Shown in pieces: positions 1 through 50,040 of a stretch of 64,000 nt of DNA. Position numbers and translations under genes: made by a program. The notes under the pieces are model-generated. The model saw only the letters and a program-made list of their open reading frames with translations. It ran no database searches and was not told the origin of the DNA. The DNA lies in assembly GCF_006345805.1 (NCBI RefSeq), contig NC_043016.1:3844001-3908000 (forward strand), in the 5' to 3' direction. Positions within the stretch are counted from its first letter, which is position 1. Every line of letters begins with the position of its first letter. The stretch comes from Octopus sinensis (Eukaryota).

Positions 1-156
1 AAAGCATTCTCCATCTAAAATGGAATAAATATGGTGATGATTTTAGCATGCATAACAAAACAAATGTGTCCTTGCTACTCTTGACCTCCGGAGGATGAAC
101 GGTACTAAGGCAGCTGAAATAAAGGTATAATGAATAGAAACCATAAAATAATAATA

Positions 157-197
<41 letters not shown>

Positions 198-26540: not shown

Positions 26541-27906
26541 GTTGTAGGTCATTGCTATGCAGGGAAATCATTCTGCGAAATTTATTCACCGGAACAGCAA
26601 CTTATCGGCGATATTTCGAATCGTTTGAGAGTGCGCCGCATGCTTGGATACCTTGGATCGATGAGACAGCAACAGATGTCAGTCATTAAAAGTTAAAGTG
26701 CTTAGGTGTTAGTTTGATTTCTATCCATCCAGGCAATTAGAAACTTTTTACGAGCAAGAAAGCGTATCTCACTCGGGAATAGGATGAGAAAAAGAATGAT
26801 CAGATGAAAATAGAAAATAATATGATTGAAACATTTCAATGAATTTACTGCTTCTGAAAAGGTTATAATGAAAATTTAGGAGTCGTCAACAGAGTTTTTT
26901 TTCCCTATAATCACCTAATCTTTTAAAAGTGTAGCCAAGTCACCCTCAAGCATATATTCCCATTTCCTTTAGCTACCTCCCAAAAAGAGAACGTGGTTAG
27001 ACAATGTAGAATTAAATATCTTTTGGAATACTTTTAATCATAATTCCGTTTCATTAGATTTGACATAAGAATAAAAACAATATGGGCACGAAAAGCAGCA
27101 GTAGTAACAGCGACGCTGCCGCTGTTGACTTTGTTGACATATCCTCGGAAGATTGTAAGGTAAAGTTTATTTCATAAGAATTTAGACTTATAAAGAACGT
27201 AATTAAATACTGTAAGGCATTTGTTTGACATCCTGCTCTTCACTCCAATACATCACTTCCACCGATAGTATTTGATACAGATCGATTCTTCAGAGTCATG
27301 ATGAATATATTGAATCAAACTGCTAAAAATATCTGAGCTACTAAATCTTTCCCAGGTTTCATTCTTCCGACTTTCAAAGCAAAATGCAGGAAGCATTCAT
27401 TAGATAATCTAGCCCAAGCTAAACCATATTTGAATAAAAGACAGGATGGTATACGTTTTTCATTAAGTCTGATTGATCTTAGCTGACTGCCCCAGGGCTA
27501 GACAATAAATCTCGGTAACTGTAAATGGTAAAAGAACATCAATTAACAGCAATAAGTAGTGACAACAACTACAATAGTGATTAAACCAATTCCTGTAGCC
27601 AGTTCTGGTTCTGGAGATAGATTGAGAGTCAAAGAAAGAGGGAGATGGGGTGGAGAGAGGCGGAGGAGGAAGGGAGAGTTTACCGTTGCCCCCACTGAAA
27701 TGGTTTATTTATTTCCGTTTGAAACTAATTTACTTCAATTACATACCCTGATTGCCCAGCAGGAAAATATATATGACGTCATGACATCCCATTAACGACA
27801 GAAAGGCCTCATGCTTGTTCCGCCCGCAATAAATGAATAAATAATATAAATAATAAAATATAAAAAGAAAGAAAAGTATGCAACAATACTGCAATATATA
27901 TATATA

Positions 27907-28137
27907 TAGGGTATCTAAGAGATACCACCATGCTGGAAATAGCAGTCAAAACTTGACTCTAAAACCACATTATATGTTCATACAGCGCCAGGAGAGAAGA
28001 TCAGAGAAGATCCAGTAATTTTTTGCTTGTTTATTTTGTCTTTTTGTCTTCTCTCCTGGTGCTGTATGAACATTTAATGCGGTTTTAGAGTCAAATTTGC
28101 TGCTATTTCAGCGTGGAGGTACCTCTTAGATACCCTA
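27907..28137. repeat. Fold-back (inverted repeat) element between (TA)n tracts
   Basis: Arms ~27907-28000 and ~28047-28137 are imperfect reverse complements (TAGGGTATCTAAGAG...CTCTTAGATACCCTA). Confidence 0.9.
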
Positions 28138-28157
28138 AATTATAATTATATATAATA

Positions 28158-28211
<54 letters not shown>

Positions 28212-28412
28212 TATATATATAATATATATATATATATAATTCCAAGAGAGTTAGAGGTTGTAAATCCAACCAACTAAGGGATAATATCTATCCAATATAC
28301 TGCTGGTAGAATACCCAATTATTAATACACAAGTGTTTTTTCACTGCATGGCAATTACATTACCGAGTGTAATAAATGGGTGAGGGTAAAAAGTTGTTTT
28401 ACTCTTAATTTA

Positions 28413-28695
28413 TACAGCAATAAGAAAATGGAGGGGATGAAGAGGTGGTATTCATCAACTTTTAGACATATGTTTATTTATTAATTTATTTTTATAATGA
28501 CAATTATAACAATATACATACATGTATAACATATTATGCTTTACATATATAAAATATAAAAATACCAGTAATTATTAAACTATATAACGTAGAGTATAGA
28601 AAGTAGGATACATATGCATATACATTTTAATATATGTATATGTATTTATATACATTTATGTATGTGTGTATATGTAAACGTATGTATATATATAT

Positions 28696-28729
<34 letters not shown>

Positions 28730-29098
28730 GTATTTATATTTATAACTTAATCTTATGAACTTTCTAACCTCTCTGACGAAGCCCAGAGACACACCCAAGT
28801 ACCTTAATCTTATCTACCAAATACTTCAGTCTACTGGAGGGATAAAAGTAGAATGGGGTACTATGGCCTCTTGGCTGAAACAGCTGTAAGATATTATCTT
28901 ACTTTCTATGCTCTAAGTTATATATTTTAATAATTACTGGTATTTTTAGATTTTATATATTATATATGTAAATCATATGTTATACATGTATGTATATTGT
29001 TATAATTGTCTTTTAAAAAATAAATAAGTTGACATAATATAATGTCTAAAAGTTTATGAATACCACATCTTGATCCCCTCCATTTTCCTGTTGCTGTA
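28413..29098. repeat. Inverted repeat (arms 28413-28610 and 28895-29098) enclosing (TA)n and a hammerhead
   Basis: TACAGCAA..AAAATGGAGGGGAT / ATCCCCTCCATTTT..TTGCTGTA; AATACCAGTAATTATTAAA / TTTAATAATTACTGGTATT. Confidence 0.85.
28770..28891 (+). ncRNA. Type I hammerhead ribozyme with long stem II
   Basis: TCT-CTGACGA(28773)-AGCCCAGAG...CTCTTGGCT-GAAAC AGCT GTA(28888)-AGA; inner pairing GTACC/GGTAC. Confidence 0.8.
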
Positions 29099-29308
29099 CA
29101 CACAACCCCGCCCCCACACACATATATATATGCATTCTTCTCTGTAAATTTTAGAACGTAATATTTATTGATCCACACTTATGTGCTCCTGTAAATACAT
29201 ACATTTAAATCTGTATATGTTCTTACGCATATGTACTTTGGTGTGTGAGGGAAGTGTATGTATATATGTATGCATATATATGTATGTTTATATATGCGTG
29301 TGTGTGTA

Positions 29309-29379
<71 letters not shown>

Positions 29380-30279
29380 ATAAAATTAATGTACGATATA
29401 TAGATTAAACTAATCCAGTGGTACTCACAAGAAAGCTCTTTAGTGGATCAAGCTGAAACCACATAGGAACCAAATCAAAGGGGGTGTAGTGTGCAGTCCA
29501 ATGCAGTTGAAATCCAATAAATTCAATTATTAATAATCATTTCATTAGGAGTGTTTGAAATATAAAGAAAGATCGGATATACGAGTTGAATATGCTTATT
29601 TATTTCACTAGTTGATATCAATATGATTATGATTGTTTCCTAGCCATCATAATAGAAAAATAATTTATTTTATTGTATAATAAATTATCTTACATATTTG
29701 TATTAGCGTATATGTAATAAATTATATAGCACTAGTGTACAATTTAAAAGATGAAGAAAGCTTTCTCACATCCATTTATCAACTCAGTTTTTACGTACAA
29801 AAGCAGAAAGTCATCGTCGAAATAACTATGTATGGAAGACAACAATTAATAAAGAATAAAACCTTTTTTATAGAAAGGAGGAGGGGGATTTAGTAAGGTT
29901 TGTGGTGGTGGAAGGGAAGATTTCATATAAAATGAAATAGAGGTATGGTCATATATTTTACGTTAGTAATTTAGAAGTAAAATCAAGAGAAACAAAATGA
30001 AGGTAAAAAGAAATTAGGATGAGAAAAAGAAAGGCCGGGTAATAATATTATTATGGCAGATGGTAGAATATTAAACTATATATAAGATAAATAAATAGGA
30101 ATAATAATAGAATGTATTAGTCAAGATAGTGATTAGGATAACGTTATTAATGGTATAAGACAGCTCGATAAATAGAAATTTAGGTATTTATAGATAATTC
30201 ATAATTATTGTTAGTATCGGAGTACGGTTAAGATTTAAAAGGTCACTATACGCTAGATCACTCCTCCGCAACGGTTATC

Positions 30280-49009: not shown

Positions 49010-49690
49010 CTTTAATTTTCAATATGGGTTTATATTTAATTCCGGCTTATATATTTTCGGTAAATGAGGCTTCTTTCTTTAGTCGTACTTGTGTTGAGAT
49101 CGAAATAGCAAATTGTTATAATGGAAAGATTGGGAATTGTGATTGCAGTTGCTCTGCACATCTGTCAATGTGCTCACTGAGATATATCTGGTGATATTGT
49201 GGGGTGGATATTTGTTGTCTATGGACCGTACATCTCTGTCTGATCGACATTCCTTCCGATCCTATGTAATTTTTATGGCAGCCCGAGCATATCATAACGT
49301 AATTTTGAGGCGCAAATGAAGTTAGATTTAACTTTGAATTTTTGCTCTTGTCTAAAATGGAATCCTGATCATTCCAAAATATTGGGAAATGTTCAGCAGT
49401 TAGGACGACCACACTTTTTTACTCTTGCGTCCGTTATTCTTGAAAATAATTTAGCTTTTGTGAGAACTTTCTTTAATGTCATTGAAAATTTACTGCTTTT
49501 TATGATTTTATGAGTACATAAAATTTCCTTTAGTTGGGTCCTTATGGAGCATTGGGAGATTTTGGACAATGATGTTAAATACTTCTTTGTTTCTGAGGTT
49601 GTATGTGGAGATATAAGGTGGTGTTTTCAGAGTAGGTGTGTTACAGTGTTCGACTTTTCTTAATATTTTTATGCCAATCGATTTTGCAAC
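49010..49690 (-). pseudogene. Penelope-like C-terminal region with GIY-YIG endonuclease
   Basis: PYISTYNLRN...IIVQNLPMLHKDP, then YVMICSGCHKNYIGSEGMSIRQRCTVHRQQI...LSEHIDRC. Confidence 0.85.
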
Positions 49691-50040
49691 CTTAAGCAAG
49701 TGTCTTCTACTATAGCCTCGGACCGACCAAAGCCTTGTAAGTTTGGTAGACGGAAACTGAAACACACACACACACACACACACACATACACACATGTATA
49801 TATGTGTGTGTATGTGTGTCTTTCTGGCTGTTTGTCTCCCCCAACATCACTTGACAACCTGGAGTGTTTACGTTTGTTTACGTGTGATGCTGGTGTGTTT
49901 ACGTCCTCGTAACCTAGCGTTTCGACAAAAGAGAACGATCGAATAAGTACTGGGGTCAATACATTTAGCTAAAAGTTCTTCAAGGCGGTGCTCCAGCATG
50001 GCCGTAGTCTTTTGACTGAGATAAGTAAAAGATAAAAGGT
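49690..50040 (+). mobile_element. SINE family B (5'-truncated)
   Basis: CAAGTGTCTTCTACTATAGCC...GGTAGACGGAAACTGAAA...GGCGGTGCTCCAGCATGGCCG. Confidence 0.8.

What the first reader, a model, noticed from the sequence alone, without database searches (positions are those of the whole stretch)
28413..29098. Long-stem-II hammerhead whose downstream sequence is duplicated upstream in inverted orientation
Seen: an HHR at 28773-28888 with ~97 nt between CUGACGA and GAAA that pairs as an extended hairpin (AGCC.AGAG/CUCU.GGCU, GUACC/GGUAC), and a palindromic AGCU loop III. The ~200 bp starting ~7 nt after the predicted cleavage site is present inverted at 28413-28610. Inference: the inverted copy starts near the 5' end of a self-cleaved RNA, as expected if cleaved transcripts are the retrotransposition templates. 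Such a long stem II could be missed by length-limited HHR searches.
Basis: partly seen in the sequence, partly recalled or inferred. Interest (0 to 1): 0.75.

Follow-up and report, generated by a model that had tools for sequence, protein, structure and literature searches.

The report
Long-armed hammerhead in Penelope-like repeat
Two inverted, decayed copies of a mobile non-coding repeat sit head to head here, a layout that is likely the ordinary footprint of Penelope-like retroelements, and the repeat carries a hammerhead-ribozyme motif with an unusually long middle arm that occurs in thousands of copies in this genome, is missed by the standard RNA library and is predicted, not shown, to cut its own RNA.

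Summary
A complete type-I hammerhead (HHR) motif lies at 28773-28888. Its 97-nt stem II folds as one closed rod, and helix III is the palindrome ACAGCUGU. The ~200 bp starting 7 nt after the predicted cut recur inverted at 28413-28610.

The locus is not a special structure. It is a head-to-head pair of copies of a dispersed, non-coding repeat about 2.3 kb long that inserts in (TA)n tracts (at least 1,461-1,709 first-look candidates).

Of 96 copies anchored at their 3' end, most are 5'-truncated at scattered points. 22 have an abutting inverted partner, and in 20 of those 22 exactly one arm carries a 180-nt 3' extension. These are hallmarks of Penelope-like element (PLE) insertion.

Breakpoints are only about 2-3x enriched at the predicted cut (P 0.003-0.011), and not in a sister family. 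The idea that cleaved RNA serves as the template is therefore weakly supported.

The notable part is the ribozyme. There are 983 intact long-stem-II motifs with this loop and 4,064 with an ACGU loop, against 0-4 in controls. They span diverged families with covariation in stems I and II, and Rfam detects none. Verdict: a new variant of a known kind.

The parts
28140..28240 (.). (TA)n tract flanking the left end; presumed target microsatellite
   Evidence: Sequence. Copies of the family are flanked by (TA)n or (TG)n at both ends in the printed flanks.
28241..28412 (-). 3' extension ('long form', about 175-180 nt) of the left, inverted copy; the right copy has no counterpart
   Evidence: 28236-28610 matches the region after TTGCTGTA of long-form copies in inverted orientation (L026 89.8%, L012, L013, L017, L020, L028). 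46 of 96 copies carry it.
28413..28610 (-). Body of the left, inverted copy, 5'-truncated; its first base (28610) corresponds to +7 after the predicted cut
   Evidence: row L150.
28611..28772 (+). Upstream part of the right copy: a TA/TG-rich internal stretch of the element, then 28 nt before the HHR including the 5' strand of stem I (TCT, 28770-28772). This copy is itself 5'-truncated at about 28611.
   Evidence: Other copies align continuously from 28600-28680 to 29098 (L006, L013, L017, L027).
28773..28779 (+). HHR core strand C3-A9 (CUGACGA)
   Evidence: Kept in most of 57 distinct copies.
28780..28876 (+). Stem II: a 97-nt imperfect rod, closed by A-U, G-C, C-G, C-G
   Evidence: MFE of the insert alone is a closed rod, -29.7 kcal/mol, z -2.5. 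Across families the base and middle helices covary.
28877..28888 (+). G12 A13 A14, then helix III: A15.1-U16.1 and C-G capped by the AGCU tetraloop (ACAGCUGU is a perfect palindrome), then H17 = A. Predicted cut after 28888.
   Evidence: G12-A14 are invariant in 57 copies. The palindrome self-duplex is -11.1 kcal/mol.
28889..29098 (+). Body of the right copy up to the short-form 3' end (..TTGCTGTA). 28889-28891 (AGA) is the 3' strand of stem I.
   Evidence: The 3'-end motif has 103 exact genome hits against 0 in the control.
29099..29135 (.). (CA)n / (TA)n remnant flanking the right end
   Evidence: Sequence.

Best explanation
Window 28241-29098 holds two decayed copies of one dispersed non-coding repeat lying head to head, and the repeat carries a complete hammerhead-ribozyme motif with a 97-nt stem II; the pair was likely made in a single insertion by a Penelope-like reverse transcriptase/endonuclease acting in trans, and the motif is predicted, not shown, to cut the element's RNA as a dimer.

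Shown:
- The family has at least 1,461-1,709 first-look candidates. Its longest copies are about 2.3 kb and have no ORF.
- It ends either at ..TTGCTGTA (short form) or about 180 nt further on (long form).
- It sits in (TA)n tracts and is 5'-truncated at scattered points.
- 22 of 96 copies have an inverted partner abutting their 5' end, with the element's 3' ends pointing outward. In 20 of those 22, exactly one arm is the long form.

Inferred mechanism: the enzyme likely cuts both strands of an AT-rich target and primes cDNA on each from the same kind of RNA, starting at two alternative internal sites (hence short and long 3' ends). The two cDNAs stop or are joined at variable points, which gives inverted arms of unequal length.

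In this locus the left arm (28610 to 28241, minus strand) is the long form and begins at +7. The right arm (28611-29098) is the short form and keeps the HHR.

The HHR has a short helix III with a palindromic loop, a short stem I and a rod-like stem II. It lies about 210 nt before the short 3' end, as PLE hammerheads do. It likely trims upstream RNA, and a minority of insertions may derive from cut RNA.
For: Family and structure. 40 further full-length matches at 86-90% identity from 1,709 first-look candidates, and 1,461 candidates with the body alone. Homology among copies reaches about 1.8 kb upstream of the HHR, with no ORF above 146 aa. The two 3' ends and the (TA)n flanks are in the printed flanks.

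PLE-type insertion signatures.
- 5' truncation is spread along the element.
- 22 of 96 anchored copies have an abutting inverted copy.
- 20 of 22 pairs are long+short, 2 are short+short and 0 are long+long, while 46 of 96 copies overall are long. P=6e-5.
- Published PLE hallmarks are 5' truncation, an inverted 5'-truncated copy at the 5' end, a tail at one end only and (TA)n target bias (PMC8557442, passages).
- A purified PLE protein cuts and extends both strands, prefers AT-rich DNA and has two RT start sites that define the optional tail (PMC11167929, passages).

PLEs in this genome. 147 GIY-YIG matches over the Pfam cut-off from 5,029 candidates, with RT plus C-terminal GIY-YIG ORFs of up to 883 aa.

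Sister family. It has a 55-nt stem II and the same short/long 3' ends and (TA)n flanks. Its 3.3-kb copies hold ORF pieces with RT motifs and a GIY-YIG-like C-terminus.

HHR.
- Chance expectation is 0.01 per window.
- 983 intact motifs against 0 in the control, and 4,064 against 4.
- The rod fold appears in 37 of 46 members of eight diverged groups.
- Covariation across families is 0.262, against 0.165 for shuffles (0 of 500 reach it) and at most 0.150 for slid controls.
Against: - No autonomous partner was linked to this family. 12 canonical PLE loci and the sister PLE share no nucleotide similarity with it.
- The 3' extension is about 180 nt. The described PLE tail is 30-40 bp.
- Partial tandems (pseudo-LTRs), typical of PLEs, are rare here. 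About 2 of 100 loci show same-strand neighbouring 3' ends.
- HHR doubts: the 10.1-11.1 pair is A-U here, and G-C in only 4 of 54 sequences across families, although it is the most conserved stem pair of hammerheads (PMC3088659, passage).
- Stem I has only 3 bp, plus 3 more beyond an internal loop.
- The monomer's MFE is 11 kcal/mol better than the HHR fold.
- RNAalifold finds no consensus pairs within the family, and there is no covariation within it.
- Core invariance in the multi-family set was imposed by the search pattern, so it is not independent evidence.
- Published PLE hammerheads cleave poorly in vitro (PMC4209133), and cleavage was not needed for insertion in vitro (PMC11167929).
Confidence: 0.72

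Rival explanations
1. The inverted left copy begins where it does because its template was an RNA already cut by the hammerhead, so inversion breakpoints track the cleavage site and cleaved transcripts are the usual retrotransposition templates.
For: There is a local excess of 5' ends.
- 11 ends in -10..+20 against 5.1 expected (P=0.011), and 7 in -2..+9 against 2.0 (P=0.003).
- 6 of 38 in-range inner ends of head-to-head pairs fall at +1..+8 (P=5e-4).
- By eye, several independent copies start at about +1 (L040, L041, L087=L032, L101=L052, L144, L092). Several start at +7 (window, L020, L037, L083, L149, L158, L059).
- Five pairs have both inner ends within +1..+20 (L037, L042/L158, L083, L144, L151). 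This looks like a turn-back at a template end.
- The termination rate per nt is 0.0082 in the site window, against 0.0039 downstream and 0.0032 inside the HHR.
Against: - About 85-90% of the ends lie elsewhere. Bins at +53..73, +137..157 and +158..178 hold 9, 9 and 8 ends, as many as the site bin.
- 38 of 96 copies contain the uncut site, so uncut RNA is a common template.
- The window's own start is +7, with no match at +1..+6.
- The test windows were chosen after seeing the data. BLAST end-points are approximate, and the reference copy differs at +4..+6.
- In the sister family only 1 of 30 direct ends and 2 of 15 partner ends are near the cut (P=0.08). Its real hot spot is +129..+133, with 6 of 30.
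- A local hairpin (GUAAGAU-AUU-AUCUUAC) or reverse-transcriptase stalling before the structured HHR could give the same excess.
- In vitro, PLE insertion did not need HHR cleavage, and no RNA-seq ends were seen at the cut (PMC11167929, passage).
Confidence: 0.2
2. The hammerhead-like motif is an inactive look-alike or a dead relic. The long hairpin has another role, for instance as a recognition structure for the reverse transcriptase or a small-RNA precursor, or it has no role. No self-cleavage occurs.
For: - No Rfam hammerhead match at E<=10.
- 10.1-11.1 is not G-C.
- Stem I is short.
- The HHR fold is disfavoured by 11 kcal/mol in the monomer.
- There is no within-family covariation.
- Core conservation across families was imposed by my pattern.
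- Published metazoan PLE hammerheads are weak in vitro (PMC4209133).
Against: - All 15 core positions and the type-I topology are present.
- Chance expectation is 0.01 per 64 kb, and 0 of 300 simulations gave a palindromic helix III.
- 983 and 4,064 motif hits stand against 0 and 4 for the reversed patterns.
- Very different stem II sequences keep the same length class and rod fold next to the same core.
- Stems I and II covary across families.
- The placement and helix III type match described PLE hammerheads.
Confidence: 0.2
3. The 686-bp unit is a DNA-level foldback element or MITE with 200-bp terminal inverted repeats, moved by a cut-and-paste transposase.
For: The locus has 200-bp inverted arms at 84-92% identity around a 284-bp centre.
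Against: - 74 of 96 copies have no inverted partner.
- Inner ends differ from pair to pair, from -633 to +191.
- The arms are unequal, and one arm carries a 180-nt extension.
- Solitary copies are 5'-truncated with a fixed 3' end.
- No common terminal inverted repeat or target duplication is seen in the printed flanks.
Confidence: 0.03
4. The inverted arrangement arose by LINE-type twin priming, or by two independent insertions into the same (TA)n tract.
For: Both copies lie in a (TA)n tract that this family targets, so repeated hits are conceivable. Twin priming is known from my own knowledge of L1 elements to make 5' inversions.
Against: - Twin priming inverts the upstream part of one copy. 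It does not duplicate the same 3'-terminal 200 bp in both arms.
- Two independent hits would not give 20 of 22 long+short pairs (P=6e-5), nor abutting inner ends within a few nt (gaps of -23 to +35 nt).
Confidence: 0.05

Closest known systems
Hammerhead ribozymes of Penelope-like elements ('min-HHRs'; Cervera & de la Pena 2014, PMC4209133, main text read; dimeric PLE variants of Lunse et al. 2017, recalled only, seen as a cited title)
   Same: - Type-I topology with the canonical core.
- Very short helix III with a palindromic sequence, which implies action as a dimer.
- Short helix I.
- Thousands of dispersed copies per genome in many sequence families.
- Motifs on opposite strands 100-700 bp apart.
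- Location near the element's end.
   Different: - Helix II there is 6-8 bp ('larger than usual'). Here it is a 97-nt rod, and 45-100 nt across the sister families.
- G10.1-C11.1, reported as highly conserved there, is A-U here, and G.U, A-U, G-C or unpaired in the sister families.
- Helix III here has two base pairs plus a tetraloop rather than none.
Penelope-like element insertion architecture (Craig et al. 2021, PMC8557442, passages; Frangieh et al. 2024, PMC11167929, passages)
   Same: - 5' truncation.
- An inverted 5'-truncated copy abutting the 5' end.
- An extension present at only one end.
- Bias for (TA)n or AT-rich targets.
- Two alternative 3' ends, consistent with two RT start sites.
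- Both target strands used.
   Different: - This family has no ORF (non-autonomous), and its partner is not identified.
- The extension is about 180 nt rather than 30-40 bp.
- Partial tandems (pseudo-LTRs) are rare.
- The (TA)n bias was described for Naiads, which lack canonical hammerheads.
Animal non-LTR retrozymes (Cervera & de la Pena 2020, PMC7229834, passages; Li et al. 2026 preprint 10.64898/2026.07.22.740005, abstract and passages)
   Same: Non-autonomous, non-coding, AT-rich repeats with type-I hammerheads whose helix III is 1-2 bp capped by a palindromic tetraloop. They are proposed to derive from PLE terminal repeats.
   Different: Retrozymes are tandem arrays of 170-400 bp units that give small circular RNAs. 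This family is dispersed, reaches about 2.3 kb, has one HHR per copy and forms inverted rather than tandem pairs.
Schistosome Sm-alpha SINE-like hammerhead repeats (Ferbeyre et al. 1998; recalled, cited within PMC4209133)
   Same: A dispersed, short, non-coding retroposon family that carries a type-I hammerhead.
   Different: Canonical short stems and a different organisation. I did not test this here.

Membership tests
Hammerhead ribozyme (type I) | Conserved core: C3 U4 G5 A6 N7 G8 A9, G12 A13 A14, A15.1-U16.1, H17 | tested here: met
   CUGACGA at 28773-79, GAAA at 28877-80, U16.1 at 28887, A17 at 28888. G12-A14 are invariant in 57 distinct copies.
Hammerhead ribozyme (type I) | Three helices around the core, with helix I open and helices II and III closed | tested here: met
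   The descriptor hit and the constrained fold. Stem I has only 3 bp, plus 3 more beyond a 2x2 internal loop.
Hammerhead ribozyme (type I) | G10.1-C11.1 closing pair of helix II | tested here: not met
   A-U in 53 of 57 copies of this family. Across families: GU 19, AU 18, GC 4, other 13 of 54. The next pair is G-C in 44 of 54.
Hammerhead ribozyme (type I) | Match to a curated Rfam hammerhead model | tested here: not met
   No hammerhead family at gathering score, nor at E<=10 for the locus, six sister loci or L186.
Hammerhead ribozyme (type I) | Base-pair covariation supporting the helices | tested here: inconclusive
   Within the family there is none: 478 of 500 shuffles do as well. Across 54 sequences of diverged families the covariation score is 0.262 against 0.165 (0 of 500) and at most 0.150 for slid controls. 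Relatedness of the rows inflates such counts.
Hammerhead ribozyme (type I) | Site-specific self-cleavage | not testable with these tools
PLE-associated dimeric hammerhead | Very short helix III with a palindromic sequence that allows a dimer | tested here: met
   ACAGCUGU is its own reverse complement. Its self-duplex is -11.1 kcal/mol.
PLE-associated dimeric hammerhead | Helix II of about 4-8 bp | tested here: not met
   The helix II hairpin is 97 nt.
PLE-associated dimeric hammerhead | Lies in the terminal repeat or 3' region of an RT + GIY-YIG element | tested here: inconclusive
   This family has no ORF. In the sister family the HHR lies about 620 nt after ORF pieces with RT motifs and a GIY-YIG-like end. 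Pfam finds no family at E<=10. BLASTP against a canonical PLE ORF gives E=0.035. The Atlas gives leads at 0.94-0.98.
Penelope-like element (insertion architecture) | Encodes RT plus GIY-YIG endonuclease | tested here: not met
   No ORF above 146 aa in the 2.2-kb reference copy. Hence it is at most a non-autonomous dependant.
Penelope-like element (insertion architecture) | Frequent 5' truncation with a fixed 3' end | tested here: met
   96 copies anchored at the 3' end have 5' ends from beyond -1000 to +191.
Penelope-like element (insertion architecture) | Inverted 5'-truncated copy abutting the 5' end | tested here: met
   22 of 96 copies, in 21 loci. The window is one of them.
Penelope-like element (insertion architecture) | Extension ('tail') at one end only | tested here: met
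   20 of 22 pairs are long+short, P=6e-5. The length is about 180 nt rather than 30-40 bp.
Penelope-like element (insertion architecture) | Partial tandems forming pseudo-LTRs | tested here: not met
   Only 2 same-strand neighbouring pairs of 3' ends among 100 listed places: C3:137636557/791 and C7:97271804/97273204.
Animal non-LTR retrozyme | Tandem array of 170-400 bp units, each with an HHR | tested here: not met
   There is one HHR per copy, and copies are dispersed or in inverted pairs.
MITE / foldback DNA transposon | Constant terminal inverted repeats and target-site duplication in all copies | tested here: not met
   74 of 96 copies have no inverted partner, and inner ends vary.

The most novel reading that the evidence does not exclude
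This genome carries a lineage-wide class of Penelope-type hammerheads in which stem II has grown into a conserved 45-100-nt rod. There are at least 5,000 intact motifs in many families, including an RT + GIY-YIG element, and current RNA family models do not see them. The excess of insertion 5' ends at +1..+8 would be the first genomic footprint showing that hammerhead-cut PLE RNAs are used as reverse-transcription templates in vivo.
Probability: 0.2. Interest if true: 0.7.

Novelty: new variant of a known kind. Interest (0 to 1): 0.45.

Why it matters
What hammerheads do for Penelope-like elements is an open question. The published in vitro system did not need cleavage and found no RNA ends at the cut (PMC11167929, passage).

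This genome offers thousands of copies in which 5' ends can be mapped against a predicted cut. It also holds a structural variant, a rod-like stem II of 45-100 nt, that descriptor and Rfam searches limited to short stems would miss. If such variants are common, hammerhead censuses in invertebrate genomes are undercounts.

The strict long+short asymmetry of the inverted pairs is also a clean genomic read-out. It fits the model of two start sites and priming on both strands proposed from biochemistry.

For this particular locus the result is ordinary: a decayed pair of repeat copies.

Tried and rejected
- RNA evidence. The look-up of sequencing runs listed no RNA holder.
- Earlier notes of this scan: none for this genome.
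It was replaced by a script scan.
- RNAalifold on 57 same-family copies gave 0 pairs. On the 54-sequence multi-family MAFFT alignment it gave only the base of stem II, because indels in the rod are not structurally aligned. I therefore counted a hand-set structure.
- Autonomous partner. 12 GIY-YIG loci show no similarity to the family and no HHR in their flanks by a strict scan. tblastn of a canonical PLE ORF against all family loci found nothing adjacent. The sister PLE shares no nucleotide similarity.
- Pfam on the sister ORF pieces: no family at E<=0.01 or E<=10.
- A DNA search with the sister family's tail returned nothing, because very common words are skipped. It was replaced by a pattern search.
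- A second mapping of 5' ends by local alignment to 9 references agreed broadly but over-extended some ends in AT-rich stretches. I used the BLAST chain plus reading by eye.
- Literature on a long hammerhead stem II. Searches, and passages of six papers, gave no description. The library lacks most subscription journals, I opened no supplementary figures or tables, and Lunse et al. 2017 is not held. 'Not described' is therefore provisional.
- I did not try to name the organism.
Full report
1. THE OBSERVATION

The sequence shows CTGACGA at 28773-28779, a 97-nt stretch, GAAA at 28877-28880, the eight-base palindrome ACAGCTGT at 28880-28887, and GTA ending at 28888.

I wrote a descriptor that asks for four things:
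- the two core strands;
- four closing pairs of stem II next to both strands;
- a helix III of 1-3 pairs ending in U-H;
- at least three stem I pairs.

It finds this site and no other on either strand of the window. In 300 order-1 Markov simulations of the window it found 3 sites in all (0.01 per window), none with a palindromic helix III.

The 97-nt insert, folded alone, gives one closed, imperfect rod of -29.7 kcal/mol, z -2.5 against 200 dinucleotide shuffles.

The whole 151-nt stretch folds better than shuffles (-39 kcal/mol, z -2.58, 0 of 200 shuffles as good). That optimum is not the hammerhead junction. Forcing the junction costs 11 kcal/mol (-27.8 against -39.0).

The inverted repeat is real. 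Three blocks are 91-93% complementary, and BLAST gives 84% identity over 212 nt. The outer ends are TACAGCAA / TTGCTGTA, and the right arm starts at 28895, 7 nt after the predicted cut.

2. WHAT THE LOCUS IS

A search of the window's own genome (2.72 Gb, 13,516 contigs) used 28745-29100 as query.
- It gave 1,709 first-look candidates.
- 40 were scored, yielding 43 matches.
- Besides the window's own locus, these were 39 near-full-length copies at 85-90% identity plus partial inverted matches.

The 204-nt body alone gave 1,461 candidates and 44 matches. The locus therefore belongs to a dispersed repeat family.

Comparing flanks of 30 loci shows four things.
- The TA/TG-rich stretch 28611-28744 belongs to the element.
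- Many copies extend further upstream through internal (AAT)n and (TA/TG)n tracts. Homology between long copies reaches about 1.8 kb upstream of the hammerhead, and no ORF there is longer than 146 aa.
- The 3' end is either ..TTGCTGTA followed by (TA)n, or runs on for about 180 nt and then meets (TA)n or (TG)n.
- The element is flanked by such microsatellites on both sides.

The window's left arm continues to 28241 as this 180-nt extension, read on the minus strand. The true layout is:
- (TA)n at 28140-28240;
- an inverted long-form copy at 28241-28610, starting at +7;
- a direct short-form copy at 28611-29098, which is itself 5'-truncated but keeps the hammerhead;
- a (CA)n/(TA)n remnant.

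3. AN UNBIASED SAMPLE OF COPIES

The 21-nt 3'-end motif has 103 exact hits (58 + 45) against 0 for the reversed control. I fetched the 100 listed places with 1.1 kb upstream and chained BLAST hits to one long genomic copy. 96 could be anchored. L103, L133, L163 and L164 could not.

Their 5' ends lie as follows:

| Interval relative to the cut | Copies |
|---|---|
| upstream of -140 | 25 |
| -140..-11 (inside the hammerhead) | 13 |
| -10..+20 | 11 |
| +21..+191 | 47 |

Inverted partners and 3' forms:
- 22 of 96 copies have an inverted copy abutting their 5' end with its own 3' end pointing outward. L082 and L083 are two views of one locus, and L150 is the window.
- The paired inner ends range from -633 to +191.
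- 46 of 96 copies are long-form.
- 20 of the 22 pairs are long+short, 2 are short+short and none is long+long. Binomial P=6e-5.

These features match the published description of Penelope-like elements (PLEs):
- high 5' truncation;
- an inverted 5'-truncated copy at the 5' end;
- an extension at one end only;
- (TA)n as a preferred target of one clade (PMC8557442, passages seen).

They also fit biochemistry. A purified PLE protein cuts and extends both target strands, prefers AT-rich DNA, and starts reverse transcription at two internal sites whose distance defines the optional tail (PMC11167929, passages).

The genome is rich in such elements. There are 147 GIY-YIG matches over the Pfam cut-off from 5,029 candidates, with open frames up to 883 aa that read as RT plus C-terminal GIY-YIG. 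I could not link this family to a particular partner.

4. IS THE BREAKPOINT TIED TO THE CUT?

There is a modest local excess.
- In -10..+20: 11 ends against 5.1 expected from the termination rates on either side (P=0.011).
- In -2..+9: 7 against 2.0 (P=0.003).
- Among pair junctions: 6 of 38 in-range inner ends at +1..+8 (P=5e-4).

By eye, some copies begin at about +1: L040, L041, L087, L101, L144 and L092. Others begin at +7: the window, L020, L037, L083, L149, L158 and L059.

Several points weigh against a tie to the cut.
- The windows were chosen after seeing the data.
- BLAST ends are approximate.
- Other 21-nt bins hold as many ends (9, 9 and 8).
- 38 of 96 copies span the uncut site.
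- The window's own start is +7, with no match at +1..+6.

A sister family gives an independent test. I took the first 30 of 1,391 exact 3'-end hits.
- 1 of 30 direct ends and 2 of 15 partner ends lie near the cut (P=0.08).
- The strongest hot spot is elsewhere, at +129..+133 (6 of 30).

A local hairpin across the site, or reverse-transcriptase stalling before the structured ribozyme, would explain the same shoulder.

5. IS THE HAMMERHEAD REAL?

Within the family, 57 distinct copies keep the core about as well as the rest of the sequence (90% mean column identity). RNAalifold finds no consensus pairs. My HHR structure is 91.5% paired, but 478 of 500 shuffles do as well. That is what neutral decay of young copies gives, and it says nothing either way.

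The informative result came from the genome.
- CTGANGA-N(88-102)-GAAACAGCTGTA has 983 hits (475 + 508) against 0 + 0 for the reversed pattern.
- CTGANGA-N(45-75)-GAAACACGTGTA has 4,064 hits (1,993 + 2,071) against 2 + 2.

The first set contains several groups whose stem II sequences are hardly alignable to each other. I fetched 60 of the 100 listed places, chosen by eye to span the types.
- In eight named groups the insert alone closes into a rod in 37 of 46 members, with group mean z from -1.1 to -6.1.
- I aligned 54 sequences: 6 of this family plus 48 of the 60. I left out L223, L236-L245 and L248 as unalignable or truncated.
- On that alignment I counted 19 hand-set pairs: stem I, the base and middle of stem II, and helix III.

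The results of that count:

| Measure | Observed | Shuffles | Slid controls |
|---|---|---|---|
| Cells paired | 81.7% | 74.0% (0 of 500 reach observed) | not noted |
| Cells changed on both sides | 80 | 33.5 (0 of 500) | not noted |
| Covariation score | 0.262 | 0.165 (0 of 500) | at most 0.150 |

Caveats:
- Rows within a group are related.
- The count of pairs with any double change (13 against 11.8) is not significant.
- The invariance of the core in this set was imposed by my pattern.

Departures from the canonical consensus:
- 10.1-11.1 is A-U here, and G-C in only 4 of 54 sequences. It is called the most conserved stem pair in PMC3088659 (passage).
- Stem I is short.

No Rfam hammerhead model matches the locus, six sister loci or a 55-nt-type locus, even at E<=10.

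6. THE SISTER FAMILY ANCHORS THE CLASS IN A PLE

The 55-nt-stem-II family has the same short/long 3' ends and (TA)n flanks.
- Its long copies share 3.3 kb at 97-98% identity.
- They hold ORF pieces with FDIASFY.., YRDDC and FLDV motifs and a C-terminal ..VYQC..YIGASS..R..NH stretch.
- Pfam finds nothing at E<=10.
- BLASTP aligns the first piece collinearly with the RT core of a canonical PLE ORF of this genome (20% identity over 212 aa, E=0.035).
- The Atlas places the two pieces next to 'reverse transcriptase fragment' clusters (0.95-0.98) and 'GIY-YIG' clusters (0.94-0.96). These are leads, not proof.
- The hammerhead lies about 620 nt after the ORF end.
- A canonical PLE of the genome (L172) carries a short hammerhead motif with the U3-A8 core variant 570 nt after its stop codon. 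This is a variant described in PMC4209133.

7. COMPARISON AND VERDICT

The locus works like, and most likely is, a non-autonomous dependant of PLEs carrying a PLE-type dimeric hammerhead.

Already described:
- a helix III of two base pairs with a palindromic tetraloop (PMC7229834, PMC3088659 and PMC4209133);
- motifs on opposite strands 100-700 bp apart (PMC4209133);
- the inverted 5'-truncated partner (PMC8557442).

What I did not find described is a stem II of 45-100 nt as a conserved trait of thousands of copies. The searches behind this are, plus passages of six papers. Supplements were not opened, and the library is incomplete.

The long+short asymmetry of the inverted pairs is a neat genomic counterpart of the model with two start sites and priming on both strands.

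Cleavage itself is untested.

Noticed in passing
window 27894-28140: A separate palindromic unit of about 250 bp lies directly left of the (TA)n tract. Its arms are 27949-28000 / 28047-28098 (92%) and 27904-27938 / 28106-28140 (86%). It may be another head-to-head pair or a MITE.
   Followed up: no
window 49020-49696 (-): A fragment of a Penelope-like RT/endonuclease ORF, 37-39% identical over about 250 aa to the ORF of locus L171 (tblastn, best E 1e-27).
   Followed up: no
L172:2362-2398 (+); L026:1176-1215 (+) and its mirror on the minus strand: A short hammerhead motif with the U3-A8 core variant (TTGATAA .. GAAACATGTA) and a 20-23-nt stem II. It lies 570 nt after the stop of a canonical RT + GIY-YIG ORF. 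In L026 it occurs as a palindromic pair.
   Followed up: partly
L012:3035-3117, L144:762-845, L030 (-) 575-648, L033:29-107: Further type-I hammerhead motifs with 55-65-nt stem II and GAAACACGTGTA or GAAACGATTGTA ends, found by chance in flanks of the family's loci. They led to the 4,064-hit pattern.
   Followed up: yes
sister family, loci L249-L278: 6 of 30 copies anchored at the long 3' end begin at +129..+133 after the predicted cut (..CTGTTTACTGCTG). This is a sharp truncation hot spot unrelated to the ribozyme.
   Followed up: no
L044 / L151 (G000:C20:4644685-4645079): A head-to-head pair whose two inner ends (+10 and +20) are joined by the six bases CCCTAA / TTAGGG, a telomere-like filler. 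It may be chance.
   Followed up: no
L032 = L087 (G000:C3:137636791-137636992): A copy with an internal deletion of about 560 nt. An upstream part of the element (..CTCAACACA) is joined directly to about +1/+3 after the predicted cut, as if a template switch had occurred at an RNA 5' end.
   Followed up: partly
window 29320-29385: A (CTAT)n microsatellite of about 16 units downstream of the element.
   Followed up: no
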